Source of the DNA: an uncultured Bacilli bacterium
GTDB taxonomy: Bacteria > Bacillota_I > Bacilli_A > RF39 > UBA660
DNA: 64,000 nucleotides
Reading direction: 5' to 3'
Assembly (NCBI GenBank): GCA_934162425.1
Contig: CAKPIS010000003.1
Coordinates: 15,774-79,773, forward strand
Positions 9,001-15,000 of the stretch are shown piece after piece (position 1 is the stretch's first letter; every line of letters begins with the position of its first letter). The position numbers are program-made.

Positions 9001-12000
9001 ATCTTCATTTAATAATAACTGAATTAATGGCTTGCCAACTAAGTTACTTCTTCCTACTATGCATACATTCTTTCCAGATAAATTAACTTTATATTCTTTT
9101 AATAATTCCATTACCCCAAGAGGAGTACATGATACTAAAGCTTCATTTCCAAGTGATAAATTACCAACGTTTTGACTAGTTAATCCATCAACATCTTTTA
9201 AAGGTGATATATAACTAATTATTCTGTTAGCATTTAAATTACTTGGAAGAGGAAGCTGAACAATAATAGCATTTACACTTAAATCTCGATTAAGTTCATT
9301 TATTTTATCTATTATTTCTTCTTCTGTTACATCATCATCAAATTTTATTAAGTTAAAATCAAGCCCTACATATAAGCATGCTTTCTTTTTATTTTTTATA
9401 TAAAGATTACTAACACTGTTATCACCTACTTGCACTACTGTAAGTGATGGTTTTATATTTAACTTTTCAATTTTTTCTTTTAATTCATCTTTTATCTTAT
9501 TACTGATCATTAAACCATCTATTATATTATTCATAAGAAACTTCCTCATATATTGGATGACTTAGACAAAGACGCTCACATCTTTTCTTAAGATCTAACA
9601 ATATCTCTTCATTTTCTGTATTTTTAAGTGCACAAGAAATTATTTTTCCTACTTCTAAAAACTCTTTTTCTTTAAAACCTCTAGTAGTCATAGCTGAAGT
9701 ACCAAGTCTAATACCACTAGTTATAAAAGGCGTAGTAGAATCAAAAGGAACCATATTTTTATTACAAGTTATTCCTATATAATCAAGTAATTTTTCCGCT
9801 TCTTTACCTGTTATATTTAAAGATGATTTAACATCTACTAAAACTATATGATTATCAGTTCCATTAGATACTATTTTAAATCCTTCCATCTTAAGTGTAT
9901 CACATAATACTTTAGCATTTTTAATAACTTGCTTTTGATATTCTATAAAACTAGGTGATAAAGCTTCTTTAAAGCATACTGCTTTAGCTGCTATAACATG
10001 CATTAAAGGTCCACCTTGAATACCTGGAAAAACACATCTATCTATTTTTTTAGCTAACTCTTCATTATTAGTAAGAATAATTCCACCCCTAGGTCCTCTT
10101 AATGTTTTATGAGTAGTAGATGTTACAACATCAGCGTATAGGCAAGGATTTTGATGAAGACCAGCTGCAACAAGACCTGCAATATGAGCCATATCAACCA
10201 TTAAATATGATCCAACTTCATCAGCTATCTTTCTAAAAATAGAAAAGTCAATCTGTCTTGGATAAGATGATGCACCAGCTACTATTAGTTTAGGTTTTTC
10301 TCTTAAAGCAATTTCTCTTACCTGTCTATAATTAATCTGTCCAGTATTTTTATCTACCCCATATGATACAAAATTATAGTCCATACCACTAAACGAAAGC
10401 TTATGTCCATGTGTTAAATGCCCACCAGAATTAAGATCCATTCCAAGTACTTTATCCCCTTTATTTATTAAAGCCATATAAGCTGCCATATTAGCGCTAG
10501 AACCACTATGAGGCTGAACATTTGCATACTTAACATTAAATAACTTCTTTAAATAATCTATTGCATAATTTTCAATTATATCAACATATTCACATCCACC
10601 ATAATATCTTTTAGAAGGATACCCTTCTGCATACTTATTAGTTAATATACTTCCTTGTGCTTTAAGTACATCAGTAGATACAAAATTTTCAGATGCAATA
10701 AGCTCTATTTTATTTTGCTGCCTTCTCTTTTCTTTTTCTATTACTCCAAATATCTCATTATTCATAATACGCACCCTCTTCCATCATAATTATACAGCAA
10801 AAAAAGATTATTAACAATTATATTAATAATCTTTGTCTATTATTTTGCCTTAATAAAAATATAACTACCATCAGATTGTTTTTCAAAAACTAAAGTATAT
10901 TTTTTATTAATTTTATCTTTATATTTTGAGAACTGCTCGTTTACATCTTTCTTATAATCATATTTCACTTTTGTACCATCGTCAAAATTAAAATATTCAT
11001 TATCATCAGCAAGTATTTCTGCATAATCAATTGTTAACTCATTACCAATTTTTTTAACATTTTTAAATCCTGAAATCATTGGTGGAATGCTATCACCACA
11101 TTCACATGATAGGAATGAATAACCATTTTCTGATTTAGAATAGCCATATGCACCATCAAAAATATTATCCATTTTTATAGTAGATTTAAGTGCATCTACA
11201 TCTTTCCCAAACATTTTCTTATACTGACTATTTACATCAGAATAACTATAAAGCGTTTGATAGCCATCAGAGCAAAGTAAATTTTCAACTTTCCAACTCC
11301 CTTTCTCAAAGCTATCATCTAAACTTTCTATATTGTTCCCAAATAATTCTTTACATGTATATTTCTTGCTTCCTTCTTTAACATTCTTAATAGCTGCTAA
11401 TGTTTTAATATTATCACTATTCAATTCTAGTTTTTTTGAATCAATAGTATGAAACAATGTAAAATTACCAAATACTTCTTCAACAATCTTTTTTCCTTCT
11501 TCATCAGATAGTTTTTCTTCTTTTTTGTTTTCTTTATCTGTCTTCTTATCTACGGTTTTCTTATCATCTTTACTACTAATATTAATAATACCTTTATCAT
11601 TTAGTATATAAACTGTCATTCCAATTATTATTAATACTAATAATACACATATTCCTTTAAATATATTTCTTTTTTTGATAGTTTCATTACTTGGTCTACC
11701 TACATCATTTTTAAATACTCCCATTTTTACTCTTTCTCCTTCTCTTTTTATTTTTTATAAAGTGCCAATCTTTAACCACTCTACATTTTTATAATATCAT
11801 CTATATCTTTCCTACGCAATAATAATAATAATAATATGTACACTGATTTTACATTAAAAAAATAGAACTAATTATATCTTATTAGTTCTATTTCTAATTT
11901 CTATTATTTTACCTTTTCAATTTTATCAAATATATAATTTCCATTACTGTCTTTATTAAGTATAAAATCAAACTTTGCAACACTATCTTTATTTTTTTCA

Positions 12001-15000
12001 AATATATCTTTAGTACTTTCTAACAAGTTACCTTTATCATCAGTATTTACCTCTATTTTATTTTCATTTGCATCAGTTAAAGTAATCATTGCTTTTGGTC
12101 CATCACTAAAATATGTGTAATAACTAAATATTATATGAAGTTTATTGTCCATTTCATAAGAATCATAAATATATTTAATTTCCTCTGGCCAAGTACCTCC
12201 ACATTCACATGAAAGTTCTACATAACCATCTTTTAGTTTAGAATAGCCATAAATAACTGCCCCTCCAGATTTTAATGATTCTGCTGATTTTCTTTTCATT
12301 TTTTTACCAAATAAACTCTCATATTTTTTATTAACATCATCATATGAATAAAATTTATTATATTTACCATAATTATAATTTTCCATACAAACACTTTCGA
12401 TACCATCTAATTCAAGTCCTGTATTTATGGAATATGATGTATTATCGCCATATTCTTTTATGTCATTTCCAAAAAGCTCTTTACATGTATTAGTTCTTTT
12501 AACACCTTCTGTTTTTTCTACTGCTAATACCATCTTGTAATCCTCAGAAAAATCATTAGCTAAATTATAATAACCATCATATACATAATTTTCTAATATT
12601 TTTTTTGCTTCCTCACTACTAACTTCTATTTTTTTGTTTTCTTTAGTTGCACCATTATCTGTCTTCTTATCTACTATTTTTTTATTATCTTTACTACTAA
12701 TATTAATAATACCTTTATCATTTAATATATAAACTGTCATTCCAATTATTATTAATACTAATAATATACATATTCCTTTAAATATATTTCTTTTTTTGAT
12801 AGTTTCATTACTTGGTCTACCTACACCATTTTTAAATACTCCCATTTTTTACTCTTTCTCCTTCTTTTTTATTTTTTATAAAGTGCCTATTTTGATTACT
12901 TTACATTTTTATAATATCATCTATATCTTTCCTACGCAATAATAATAATAATAATGTGTACACTGATTTTACATTAAAAAAATAGAACTAATTATATCCT
13001 ATTAGTTCCATTTTTTAATTATACTCTTATAAACTTATTTAATTTAATACTATATATAATCTTTTCAACTTTTTTAGCATTAAATAATTGTTTAACTCCT
13101 ATTTCATATAAATCAAGTTGAATTTTATATCTTTCTTTAAGCTCTTCTATATTATTTATATCATCACTTTTATAATCTAAAATATAATATGTATCATCGT
13201 ATACAAACATCATATCTATAATACCACTAGTTAGTATACTTTCATTTTTATATTCTATATCATAATAACTAGCTGGCAGACTAAATGTTATTTCTTTTTC
13301 TTTATATACCTTACTACTATTAAGTATCATGTCATAGATATCAGATGTAAGATACATAAACATTTTATTAATATCAATTAATTTAAGTTCCATTTTGCTA
13401 ATTATGTTATTATTACATAATTCATCTATTTTTTCTTTAAGAGTACTTAAGGTATATTTTTTTATGTCTAATAATTCAAAAATCTTATGATAAATAGTAC
13501 CTATATCATTTTTTCTTACATCACTATTTATAAAGTATGGTTTTCTTATATATGAAGATGTTTTCTTTTTTAATTCAGATACACTTAAATATATAGGCAC
13601 CTTACTTTCAGTATAATCATAATCCTTAACTATAATAGGTTTATTTTCAAAATATTCTATTTTTTCAGTTAAGTTTTCATCTTTAATATCTAAAGCATTT
13701 ATTATATCTAATTTAAACTTAGAATCACTTAAAAATACTTTACAAGAAGCATTAGATAATTCTCTTAATGCTCTTCCATCATTATGTCTTAATAAGCAAC
13801 CTATAATCCATTTTAAATAACTATTACATTCACTTAAATATAAGTTACTAATTAATCTATCATCACCTATCTTATATGATGCATCTTTTACCATATTAGT
13901 TAAATTATTAGCAAAACCAGTTATTATTAATTTTTCTCTAGCTCTTGTTAATGCAACATATAATATCCTAAGTTCTTCTGATAATTGAAGTAATTTTATT
14001 TTATCTTTCATAATTATTTTAGAAATAGGTTCATATTTAAACTTTTTATCATAATCTAATATATCAAAAGAAATACCATAGTTATTATCTATCAAAAATG
14101 AATTTTGAAGATCCATATTATTAAATTGAGAACCTGTTTCACAAACAAATACAACAGGATACTCTAATCCTTTTGATCTATGTATTGTAGTAATTAAAAC
14201 GTTATCCCCATCTGATAGTGGATTAGCCCCTGCAAAGGATGATTTATCAAGTAATACTTCTTCTATATAAGAAACAAATTCATGAAAGCTTTTAGATGTA
14301 TTTTTTTCATAATCACTTGCATTTTTTACCATCATAGTTAGATTTTTAAGTTTTGATTTATCAGTTCCTAAAATATTTATAACATCTAATTTTTTGTATA
14401 TATAATTTATTGTATCAGTTAAAGTATTATTATTCTTAAATACACTTAAATCATAAATTATATCTAATATATCATTAAGCTTTTTATCATCACTTTTCTT
14501 TATTGCATCATATAAATATAAGTTTTTATAATTTACTTTACATTTTGCAATTAAACTATCTTCTATATTAAATAATTTAGATTTTAAAACACTAATTAAT
14601 GATATATCATCATAATAATTATCTATTACTTTTAAAATACATATAATAAGTTTAACATCATAATTATCAAAGAAATTAACTTCTTTATTAGAATAAACTC
14701 CAATACCTCTATTATTAAGTGCAATTCTATATGTATCACTATGAGTTAAGTTTCTAAATAATATAGCTATATCACTAGGTCTTATATCCCTAAAAAATCC
14801 TTTTTTATCATAAACCTGATATTTATCATCTATTAATTTTTTTATTTTATTAGCTACAAATATAGCTTCTTTTTGAGATTTAGTAAGTTCATCATCATCT
14901 TCTTTTTCTTCGTTATTTATAATACATACTTCAGATAAAGCATCATCATATTCTGGAAAAGGCATACCATTATAAAGCATTTCATCTTTATCATAATTAG

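What the first reader, a model, noticed from the sequence alone, without database searches (positions are those of the whole stretch)
10803..13018. Recent tandem duplication of a complete P2/P3 gene unit including terminator, promoter and N-terminal coding region
11725..11903 and 12846..13018 are about 95% identical. The first 140 nt of coding sequence of P2 and P3 are also nearly identical, while the C-terminal domains have diverged to roughly 40% aa identity. The duplicated unit therefore keeps expression signals and the N-terminal address constant while the extracellular domain evolves quickly. The repeated block also carries a perfect 10-bp inverted repeat (tagaactaat...attagttcta) that doubles as the upstream gene terminator. 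It also carries an (AAT)5-6 microsatellite (caataataataataata) in the promoter region that could slip and modulate expression.
Basis: seen in the sequence. Interest (0 to 1): 0.65.

Follow-up and report, generated by a model that had tools for sequence, protein, structure and literature searches.

The report
Old surface-gene pair, variable ATT promoter repeat
Two neighbouring genes for membrane-anchored surface proteins of an uncultured human-gut bacterium are old relatives whose front ends have been copied onto each other, and their promoter carries a three-letter repeat that runs from 3 to 15 copies in different strains, so this looks like a switchable, strain-variable surface locus and not a fresh duplication.

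Summary
The sequence observation is real. Two minus-strand genes, P2 (10840..11724) and P3 (11904..12845), each have a ~366-nt 5' block that is 94.6% identical between them. The block holds a terminator hairpin, (AAT)6, a promoter, the 5'UTR and the first 62 codons. The gene bodies share only ~39% of aligned residues.

"Recent tandem duplication" is not supported. Synonymous divergence is 0.087 in codons 1-62 and about 1.0 (saturated) in the bodies. Other species have P2-type proteins 60-73% identical to P2 but 40% or less to P3. P2's N-terminus is closer to P3 than to its own orthologues. This indicates old paralogues with a 5' end homogenised by gene conversion.

The addA-glyA gap varies among conspecific strains whose flanks are 96-100% identical: P3+P2, P3 only, P2 only, or a kinase gene plus P2.

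It abuts a putative -35 box. Any effect on expression is inferred.

The 45-aa N-terminal "address" (FKNxVGRPSN plus a membrane helix) heads about 486 protein clusters. Elsewhere many are driven by promoters with a poly-G spacer. This is a new member of the known class of contingency surface-gene families.

The parts
10840..11724 (-). P2 gene, 294 aa. Short cytoplasmic tail with a GRPSN motif, one membrane helix (residues ~24-41), a Lys/Glu/Asp-rich disordered linker, and a ~230-aa globular ectodomain.
   Evidence: ORF. AlphaFold model with pLDDT 84: helix 13-43, low confidence 45-64, above 90 from residue 70. Orthologues are 90-98% identical in conspecific strains. No Pfam or NCBIfam family.
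11904..12845 (-). P3 gene, 313 aa, an old paralogue of P2 with the same architecture.
   Evidence: ORF. 43% identity to P2. Orthologues P0001 (94%), P0002 (78%) and P0003 (61%).
11534..11899 (-). 5' block, copy A (in front of and into P2): hairpin, ATT tract, promoter, 5'UTR, codons 1-62.
   Evidence: blastn gives 94.6% over 368 columns against 12655-13020. Alignment A1.
12655..13020 (-). 5' block, copy B (in front of and into P3). Its distal end touches the addA stop codon (13019-13021).
11856..11895 (-). Intrinsic-terminator-like hairpin A (A-tract, 10-bp perfect stem core 11863-11872/11881-11890, 8-nt loop, U7). It would terminate P3.
   Evidence: RNA fold -14.1 kcal/mol, z -4.3. AT-rich stem, so the simple terminator scan misses it.
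12976..13015 (-). Hairpin B, the terminator of addA. Core 12983-12992/13001-13010, with one G-U pair that exists only in the minus-strand RNA.
   Evidence: RNA fold -14.6 kcal/mol, z -4.8. The same hairpin follows addA in every conspecific strain.
11818..11835 (.). (AAT)6 on the + strand, (ATT)6 on the coding strand, copy A. Its last unit supplies the TT of the putative -35 box.
   Evidence: Length polymorphism of 3-15 units among strains.
12938..12955 (.). (AAT)6, copy B.
11791..11819 (-). Putative promoter of P2: -35 TTGCGT (11814-11819), 17-nt spacer, extended -10 TGaTATTAT (11791-11799). Inferred from sequence only.
   Evidence: Read. TTG and TATTAT are unchanged in all ATT-type promoters of the strains. 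The consensus scan is uninformative in 25% GC DNA.
12911..12939 (-). Putative promoter of P3, with the same hexamers (-35 at 12934-12939, -10 at 12911-12916).
10798..10836 (-). Terminator-like hairpin after P2 and before the glyA leader. In strains that carry only P3 the same element follows P3.
   Evidence: RNA fold -13 kcal/mol, z -2.65. L001-L003 sequences.
11539..11724 (-). Codons 1-62 of P2: the N-terminal 'address' (MGVFKNxVGRPSNETIKKRNIFKG plus membrane helix) and the start of the linker. This is the converted segment, of P3 type in this strain.
   Evidence: dS 0.087 against P3 but 0.27 against P2 orthologues of L006/L007. Membrane-helix allele LLVLIIIGMTVY against LFGLIIIVLVGY.
12660..12845 (-). 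Codons 1-62 of P3 (N-terminal address).
618..764 (-). 73% aa and 79-85% nt identity to the P2/P3 address.
19327..20949 (-). 540-aa protein with a more divergent copy of the address (MKLFKNSVGRPTNK...).
   Evidence: Weak Flg_new/ATLF hits.
21066..22988 (-). 640-aa protein with the address (MKLFENKIGRPSNETKKKR...).

Best explanation
P2 and P3 are two old paralogous, monocistronic genes. They encode single-pass (N-in, C-out) membrane-anchored surface proteins of an uncharacterised family in an uncultured, 25%-GC gut Bacilli species.

They sit in a recombination-prone slot between addA and glyA. Each gene is headed by the same portable 5' cassette:
- the terminator hairpin of the upstream gene,
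- a conserved element,
- an (ATT)n microsatellite abutting a TTGCGT-N17-TGaTATTAT promoter,
- the 5'UTR and ribosome-binding site,
- 62 codons for a lineage-specific export/anchor 'address'.

The near-identity of the cassette is maintained by gene conversion or homologous recombination between family members, not by recency of duplication. The same homology lets strains gain, lose or swap genes in the slot.

The ATT tract slips. Because it sets the distance and phasing between the core promoter and the upstream conserved element, or acts as an A/T-rich UP-like element, it most likely tunes transcription of each gene independently. With the poly-G-spacer promoters that drive other members of the family, this makes the family a contingency (phase- or level-variable) surface repertoire.

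Shown: the anatomy, the old paralogy, the mosaic 5' end, the variation in strain content, and the repeat-length polymorphism.

Inferred: promoter assignment, surface exposure, and any effect of repeat number on expression.
For: - Anatomy and identity step.
- Synonymous divergence: 0.087 (3 of 36 sites) in codons 1-62 against 1.04 in the body.
- Identity matrices: bodies are 67-71% identical in nt between the P2 and P3 types in every strain. Within a type they are 94-100% (P2) and 85-100% (P3). Codons 1-62 are 93-100% identical across both types. The window's P2 5' end groups with P3.
- P2-type proteins at 60-73% identity in other species are 40% or less identical to P3.
- Conspecific strains (flanks 96-100% identical) carry: addA-P3-glyA (L001-3); addA-P2-glyA (L031-35); addA-orf-APH-P2-glyA (L007-11, L013, L039); a different promoter in front of P2 (L004/5); and P3+P2 (window = L030/L037 and L038).
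- ATT units: 3, 4, 6, 7, 15, and a CCT-interrupted 6. These are the only tracts of this kind in 64 kb.
- Address: 486 cluster representatives match, nearly all at residues 1-45, in proteins of 43-1042 aa. Partner domains are extracellular: PG_binding_1, SleB-type hydrolase, dockerin, Big_2, SASA.
- Poly-G (G8-G10) between TTGAC(A) and an extended -10 lies upstream of address-family genes in 11 loci of 22-28% GC DNA, including P2 itself in L004/L005.
- A trinucleotide repeat about 40 nt upstream of the transcription start, with conserved flanks, controls vlhA genes in Mycoplasma gallisepticum (PMC6258824).
Against: - No expression data, and the transcription start is not mapped.
- The -35 hexamer matches the consensus at only 3 of 6 positions.
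- The tract is outside the -35/-10 spacer, so a clean on/off switch is not expected.
- 3-7 units is short for high-frequency slippage.
- Length differences are between strains. Within-population heterogeneity could not be examined.
- The N-terminal dS estimates rest on few sites: 3 against 8.5 differences in about 36 synonymous sites.
Confidence: 0.66

Rival explanations
1. One reading: a recent tandem duplication of the whole unit, after which the ectodomain diverged very fast under diversifying selection while the 5' part stayed constant.
For: The repeat boundaries do enclose a complete unit, from just after the upstream stop codon to 'AAAATAATAGA' just after each gene's own stop. An ancient whole-unit duplication is the likely ultimate origin.
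Against: - Body dS is about 1.0 against 0.087 in the 5' part. Selection on protein cannot hold synonymous sites.
- P2-type and P3-type orthologues exist separately in other strains and species.
- Bodies are under purifying selection among strains (dN/dS 0.17-0.42).
Confidence: 0.05
2. Assembly artefact: a P3-only strain and a P2-only strain in one metagenome were stitched into a false tandem through the shared block.
For: - The source is a metagenome contig (L030, SPAdes NODE_5, 510 kb, coverage 31).
- Both single-gene strain types exist.
- Contigs of other samples break inside the block (L006, L038).
- L012 is an exact hybrid of two family loci.
Against: - The junction sequence (P3 stop, TAATAGA, then AATTAGAAATAGAAC...) is unique and differs from the addA-proximal copy.
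- The two blocks differ at about 5% of positions, with at most 58 nt of exact identity.
- The window's block A resembles the P2 upstream of L006 (98%) and block B the P3 upstream of L001-3 (94%).
- A second assembly record with a different assembler naming is 100% identical over 3793 nt spanning the junction.
Confidence: 0.05
3. The 5' identity reflects purifying selection alone on the promoter, leader and address, with no gene conversion. The ATT tract is a neutral microsatellite with no regulatory role.
For: - The address is strongly conserved at the protein level across hundreds of clusters.
- The tract lies outside the promoter spacer.
- Several strains have only 3 units, and one lineage has an interrupted tract of the same length.
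Against: - Synonymous sites are 12-fold less diverged in the 5' part than in the body under the same AT bias.
- The window's P2 carries the P3-type membrane-helix allele, unlike the P2 of L006/L007/L012.
- Tracts occur only at this promoter position in 64 kb.
- The sister promoter cassette of the same family carries a poly-G run inside the spacer.
- Neutrality of the ATT tract itself cannot be excluded.
Confidence: 0.2

Closest known systems
Mycoplasma gallisepticum vlhA (pMGA) variable lipoprotein haemagglutinin family
   Same: A multigene family of surface proteins. A trinucleotide repeat sits about 40 nt upstream of the transcription start, flanked by conserved sequences, and repeat number differs between strains and between paralogues (PMC6258824). 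Here (ATT)n sits at about the same position relative to the putative promoter, has conserved flanks, and varies from 3 to 15.
   Different: - No sequence or domain relation; Pfam gives nothing.
- The repeat is ATT, not GAA, and shorter.
- The proteins have an uncleaved membrane anchor and are not lipoproteins.
- Dependence of expression on repeat number is untested here.
- Only two tandem genes sit at this locus.
Homopolymer-in-promoter-spacer phase variation (Mycoplasma hyorhinis vlp poly-A; Neisseria opc/porA poly-C/G), from my own knowledge
   Same: Other members of this address family, and P2 itself in strains L004/L005, have G8-G10 between TTGAC(A) and an extended -10, giving 16-20-nt spacers.
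   Different: That cassette is not present in the window. The P2 and P3 promoters in the window carry the ATT tract outside the spacer. Switching has not been observed.
Conserved-motif signal peptides of Gram-positive surface proteins (YSIRK-G/S, KxYKxGKxW)
   Same: A lineage-specific, strongly conserved motif in the charged n-region at the extreme N-terminus is followed by a hydrophobic segment. It is shared by many unrelated extracellular proteins.
   Different: The motif is different (FKNxVGRPSNETIKKR). Neither Pfam nor NCBIfam recognises it. No cleavage site is evident, and the model predicts a long anchor helix.
Concerted evolution by gene conversion of 5' ends in surface-gene families (e.g. 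Neisseria opa, Mycoplasma vsp/vsa conserved leader regions), from my own knowledge
   Same: Promoter, leader and signal region are homogeneous among paralogues while the mature domains are divergent. There are mosaic alleles and gene gain and loss at the locus.
   Different: No dedicated recombinase, silent cassettes or pseudogene reservoir is seen near the locus. The variation documented is between strains.
IseA/YoeB (DL-endopeptidase inhibitor) and cystatin/NTF2-like alpha+beta rolls
   Different: The scores are too low for homology. The profile finds no PDB sequence match. No functional inference is justified.

Membership tests
SSR-controlled contingency (phase-variable) surface-gene family, vlhA-like | Simple-sequence repeat at a fixed position in the promoter region, with conserved flanks | tested here: met
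   (ATT)n lies between the conserved TAATGTAAAATYAGTGTAYAY and GYGTARGAAAGAT...TATTAT in all ATT-type promoters. These are the only such tracts in the window.
SSR-controlled contingency (phase-variable) surface-gene family, vlhA-like | Repeat number polymorphic among closely related strains | tested here: met
   3, 4, 6, 7 and 15 units in strains whose flanking genes are 96-100% identical.
SSR-controlled contingency (phase-variable) surface-gene family, vlhA-like | Expression state depends on repeat number, with reversible switching within a clone | not testable with these tools
   No reads, transcriptomes or cultures are available.
SSR-controlled contingency (phase-variable) surface-gene family, vlhA-like | Sequence homology to VlhA or other named variable lipoproteins | tested here: not met
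   No Pfam or NCBIfam family above its cut-off for P2 or P3. There is no lipobox; the Cys lies before the hydrophobic segment.
Recent segmental tandem duplication | Uniformly low synonymous divergence along the whole duplicated unit | tested here: not met
   dS 0.087 in codons 1-62 against 1.04 in the body.
Rho-independent terminator | Stem-loop immediately followed by a U-tract on the transcribed strand | tested here: met
   15-16-bp stems including the A/U extension, U7 tail, dG about -14 kcal/mol, z below -4.
Rho-independent terminator | G+C-rich stem | tested here: not met
   Only 2-3 G-C pairs. The consensus scan reports no site. This may be normal for a 25% GC genome.
YSIRK / KxYKxGKxW signal-peptide families | The named motif in the n-region of a cleavable signal peptide | tested here: not met
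   The motif here is FKNxVGRPSN. No hit to those models in Pfam or NCBIfam.
IseA/YoeB inhibitor family | Significant fold or sequence match over the whole domain | tested here: not met

The most novel reading that the evidence does not exclude
An uncultured, reduced-genome gut Bacilli lineage runs a modular surface-variation system with three parts:
- a previously undescribed N-terminal export/anchor address (FKNxVGRPSN plus a membrane helix) shared by about 500 protein clusters;
- two portable SSR promoter cassettes, (ATT)n upstream of -35 and poly-G inside the spacer, that recombine onto different family genes;
- gene conversion through the shared 5' block, which creates, deletes and reshuffles genes at hot spots such as addA-glyA.

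This would be a Mycoplasma-style antigenic or phase-variation apparatus in a human commensal known only from metagenomes.
Probability: 0.35. Interest if true: 0.65.

Novelty: new member of a known kind. Interest (0 to 1): 0.5.

Why it matters
Contingency loci are well studied in pathogens but barely documented in uncultured gut commensals.

- This locus gives a concrete, testable case. The strains have near-identical housekeeping flanks but differ in which surface gene(s) they carry and in a promoter microsatellite (3-15 units).
- The gene family is marked by an undescribed N-terminal address and by poly-G promoters.
- It offers markers for strain tracking in metagenomes. It also explains contig breaks at this locus.
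- The address motif could be used to enumerate the exported proteome of this lineage.
- It is also a caution: an abrupt identity step between tandem paralogues signals conversion, not recent duplication.

Tried and rejected
- Pfam and NCBIfam scans of P2, P3 and the other address proteins gave nothing above the cut-offs.
- Rfam on 10700-13100 at E up to 1 gave no RNA family in the shared leader.
- The consensus promoter and terminator scan was uninformative in 25% GC DNA: 31 sites against 22 expected, and no terminator because the stems are AT-rich.
- Structure searches gave only weak cystatin/NTF2/IseA-like partial matches. The afdb50 library was unavailable. The PDB sequence profile search gave no hit.
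- No plasmid (megablast) or phage (tblastn) match, so there is no sign of a mobile-element origin.
- Two scans of JGI metagenome contigs, for the P3-P2 junction and for the ATT promoter with variable tract length, returned 0 hits. The organism appears only in ENA/Logan assemblies.
- Lipoprotein anchoring was rejected because there is no lipobox.
- An AT-hook reading of GRP in the cytoplasmic tail was considered but left untested.
- Gene-wide positive selection on the ectodomain was rejected (dN/dS 0.17-0.42 among orthologues). P2 against P3 is saturated and uninformative.
- The upstream region of L012 (fpg plus two tRNAs) is not in the window.

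
Full report
**What is there**

The window is 25% G+C and almost all its genes are on the minus strand. Two monocistronic genes lie between addA (13019..16402) and glyA (9527..10774): P3 (11904..12845, 313 aa) and P2 (10840..11724, 294 aa).

A block of about 366 nt is 94.6% identical between the two units (11534..11899 against 12655..13020). Read on the coding strand, the block starts right at the stop codon of the upstream gene. 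It contains, in order:
- an A-tract, stem, U7 hairpin (-14.1 and -14.6 kcal/mol, z -4.3 and -4.8);
- a conserved element, AATGTAAAATCAGTGTACA;
- (ATT)6;
- a putative promoter, TTGCGT-N17-TGaTATTAT;
- a leader of about 70 nt with a GAAGGAG ribosome-binding site;
- the first 62 codons.

After codon 62 the identity falls abruptly. The inverted repeat is perfect in copy A. In copy B it keeps pairing only as a G-U pair in the minus-strand RNA, which fits a terminator read on that strand. The two (AAT)6 tracts are the only tracts of that kind with 4 or more units in 64 kb.

**Not a recent duplication**

Nei-Gojobori estimates give dS = 0.087 for codons 1-62 and dS = 1.04 (dN 0.65) for the 218 alignable body codons. 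The base composition is the same in both parts, so the 12-fold step cannot be an effect of selection on the protein.

Identity matrices over eleven alleles show the following:
- P2-type and P3-type bodies are 67-71% identical in every comparison.
- Within a type, bodies are 94-100% (P2) and 85-100% (P3) identical.
- Codons 1-62 are 93-100% identical across both types.

P2-type proteins from other species (60-73% identical to P2) are 40% or less identical to P3, so the split predates those species.

The window's P2, like that of L004/L005, carries the P3-type membrane-helix allele (LLVLIIIGMTVY). P2 of L006, L007, L012 and L013 carries LFGLIIIVLVGY. Accordingly the window's P2 N-terminus is closer to P3 (dS 0.087) than to its own orthologues (dS 0.27), although its body is only dS 0.05-0.09 from them. 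That is the signature of gene conversion of the 5' end. The site counts are small and I say so.

Among orthologues the bodies show dN/dS of 0.17-0.42, so there is no gene-wide diversifying selection. P3 of L003 does have a replaced central segment of about 300 nt inside otherwise near-identical DNA.

**A strain-variable slot**

The window is identical to a 510-kb Hadza gut metagenome contig (L030). The species representative is an 'uncultured Bacilli' MAG.

Contigs from other samples have addA, glyA, folD and smr 96-100% identical to the window, so they are conspecific. They differ in the addA-glyA gap:

| Loci | Content of the gap |
|---|---|
| L001-L003 | P3 only, followed by the very terminator and glyA leader that follow P2 in the window |
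| L031, L032-L035 | P2 only |
| L007-L011, L013, L039 | a small ORF plus an APH-family kinase gene plus P2 |
| L004, L005 | P2 behind a completely different promoter |
| window, L030/L037, L038 | P3 plus P2 |

The tandem form is not an assembly collapse:
- The copies differ at about 5% of positions, with at most 58 nt of exact identity.
- The P3-to-block junction is unique.
- L038, from another assembly record, matches 3793 nt across it at 100%.

L012 is an exact hybrid. It has the upstream part of another family gene (L015: fpg, two tRNAs, block) joined to the P2 body of L013, with the crossover in the 150 nt where all are identical. The two parents lie 23.6 kb apart on the same strand in the reference MAG. 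This is either a duplication or circle junction, or a chimeric assembly. I cannot tell which. Either way it shows that the block is long enough to mediate exchange.

**The microsatellite**

The coding-strand tract differs among strains:

| Loci | Tract |
|---|---|
| L031 | (ATT)15 |
| L039 | (ATT)7 |
| both copies in the window | (ATT)6 |
| L006, whose 670-kb contig starts inside the tract | at least 6 |
| L007-L011, L013 | (ATT)4 |
| L012, L015, L032-L035 | (ATT)3 |
| L001-L003 | ATT ATT CCT ATT ATT ATT |

L039 and L007 share the same gene arrangement yet differ (7 against 4).

The tract abuts the putative -35 box and supplies its TT. Slippage leaves the hexamers and the 17-nt spacer intact. 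It changes the distance to the conserved upstream element and the length of an A/T-rich tract at about -36 and beyond, where UP-like elements act. The closest documented case is the GAA repeat about 40 nt upstream of the start site of M. gallisepticum vlhA genes, which also has conserved flanks (PMC6258824). Any effect on expression here is inference.

**The proteins and their address**

The AlphaFold model of P2 (pLDDT 84, pTM 0.73) shows a helix at residues 13-43, a disordered Lys/Glu/Asp-rich stalk at 45-64, and a confident alpha/beta ectodomain. Basic residues precede the helix, which predicts an N-in, C-out topology.

No Pfam, NCBIfam or PDB sequence relative exists. Fold searches give only weak cystatin/NTF2/IseA-like partial matches. 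Function beyond 'anchored extracellular protein' is unknown.

The first 45 residues (M-x-x-F-K-N-x-V-G-R-P-S-N-E-T-I-K-K-R... plus helix; G9, R10, P11, S12, N13 and R19 invariant in 59 homologues) recur at the start of three more genes in the window: the gene ending at 764, 19327..20949 and 21066..22988. A profile of the five copies finds 486 cluster representatives among 1.84 billion. Nearly all the matches are at residues 1-45, on proteins of 43-1042 aa. Some of these proteins carry peptidoglycan-binding, SleB-type hydrolase, dockerin, Big_2 and SASA domains. It therefore behaves as a lineage-specific export/anchor signal. It is analogous to YSIRK or KxYKxGKxW signals but is not a member of those families.

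**Family context that supports a contingency reading**

In L004/L005 the same P2 gene is driven by TTGACA-T-G9-TAATGT-TATTAT. The same cassette precedes other family genes in L019 and L036 (G9, G8, G6).

In further species, G9-G10 runs sit between TTGAC(A) and TGnTATAAT or TGnTATTAT, 31-77 nt upstream of address-family genes (L018, L022-L026, L029; interrupted in L027). The resulting spacers are 16-20 nt. These loci are 22-28% G+C, where such runs are not expected by chance. No such run exists in the window; its two C6 runs are Shine-Dalgarno sequences.

**Verdict**

The unit architecture and the mutable microsatellite are real. 'Recent duplication with a fast-evolving C-terminus' is wrong: these are old paralogues with a converted, portable 5' cassette, sitting in a strain-variable slot. 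This is a new member of the known class of SSR-associated variable surface-gene families, in an uncultured gut Bacilli lineage, with an undescribed N-terminal address. I score interest at 0.5.

Noticed in passing
window 618-764, 20815-20949, 22854-22988 (all - strand), besides P2 and P3: A 45-aa N-terminal module (FKNxVGRPSN motif plus a membrane helix) heads five genes in the window. It matches 486 protein-cluster representatives in public data, almost always at residues 1-45, with many different C-terminal domains. Pfam and NCBIfam do not know it. The invariant GRPSN in the cytoplasmic tail is unexplained.
   Followed up: partly
L004 5815-5850, L005, L018 2080 and 3111, L019 7812, L022 3207, L023 2592, L024 7947, L025 7952, L026 4179, L029 6649, L036 1919 and 3171: Poly-G runs (G6-G10) lie between a TTGAC(A) -35 and an extended -10, just upstream of address-family genes, in 22-28% GC DNA. 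This includes P2 itself in two conspecific strains. The spacers are 16-20 nt, the classic layout of promoter phase variation.
   Followed up: partly
L012 1540-2900 compared with L015 and L013: L012 is an exact hybrid of two family loci that lie 23.6 kb apart in the reference MAG, with the crossover inside the ~150-nt identical 5' block. It is either a tandem-duplication or excised-circle junction, or a chimeric low-coverage assembly.
   Followed up: partly
L003 3284-4210 compared with window 11904-12845: This P3 allele has a strongly diverged central segment of about 300 nt (23-48 matches per 60 columns) inside flanks that are 99% identical. This suggests internal mosaic recombination in the ectodomain.
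   Followed up: partly
L007-L011, L013, L039 (e.g. L007 4225-5769): In some conspecific strains a 57-aa ORF and an APH-family (PF01636) kinase gene occupy the place of P3 between addA and P2. A decayed copy of the terminator hairpin lies before the P2 promoter.
   Followed up: no
window 6451-8388 (-): A 645-aa Cys-rich, Thr/Lys-rich protein with a pilin-like N-terminus (RGFTIKDLLIRL plus a hydrophobic stretch) and repeated C-x-x-G-Y/T motifs. No Pfam or NCBIfam family. It is 92-99% identical in nt among the strains where it aligns.
   Followed up: no
window 33016-35844 (-): A 942-aa protein with nine DUF285 ('Mycoplasma protein') repeat matches plus LRR hits, a BspA-like surface protein typical of Mollicutes-related lineages.
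   Followed up: no
window 19327-20949 (-): The 540-aa address-bearing protein has sub-threshold matches to the Listeria-Bacteroides repeat and to the anthrax lethal factor/M90-type metallopeptidase regions. It may be a secreted protease.
   Followed up: no
L017, L020, L025-L027, L029 (bins named Muribaculaceae); L023, L024 (bin named Paratractidigestivibacter): Contigs of 24-28% GC that carry this Bacilli-type gene family are filed in MAGs named after unrelated high-GC or Bacteroidota taxa. They are probably mis-binned.
   Followed up: no
L006 position 1; L038 position 1: Long contigs from other samples begin inside the ATT tract (L006) or inside the shared N-terminal coding block (L038). The repeat block or tract heterogeneity seems to break assemblies at this locus.
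   Followed up: no
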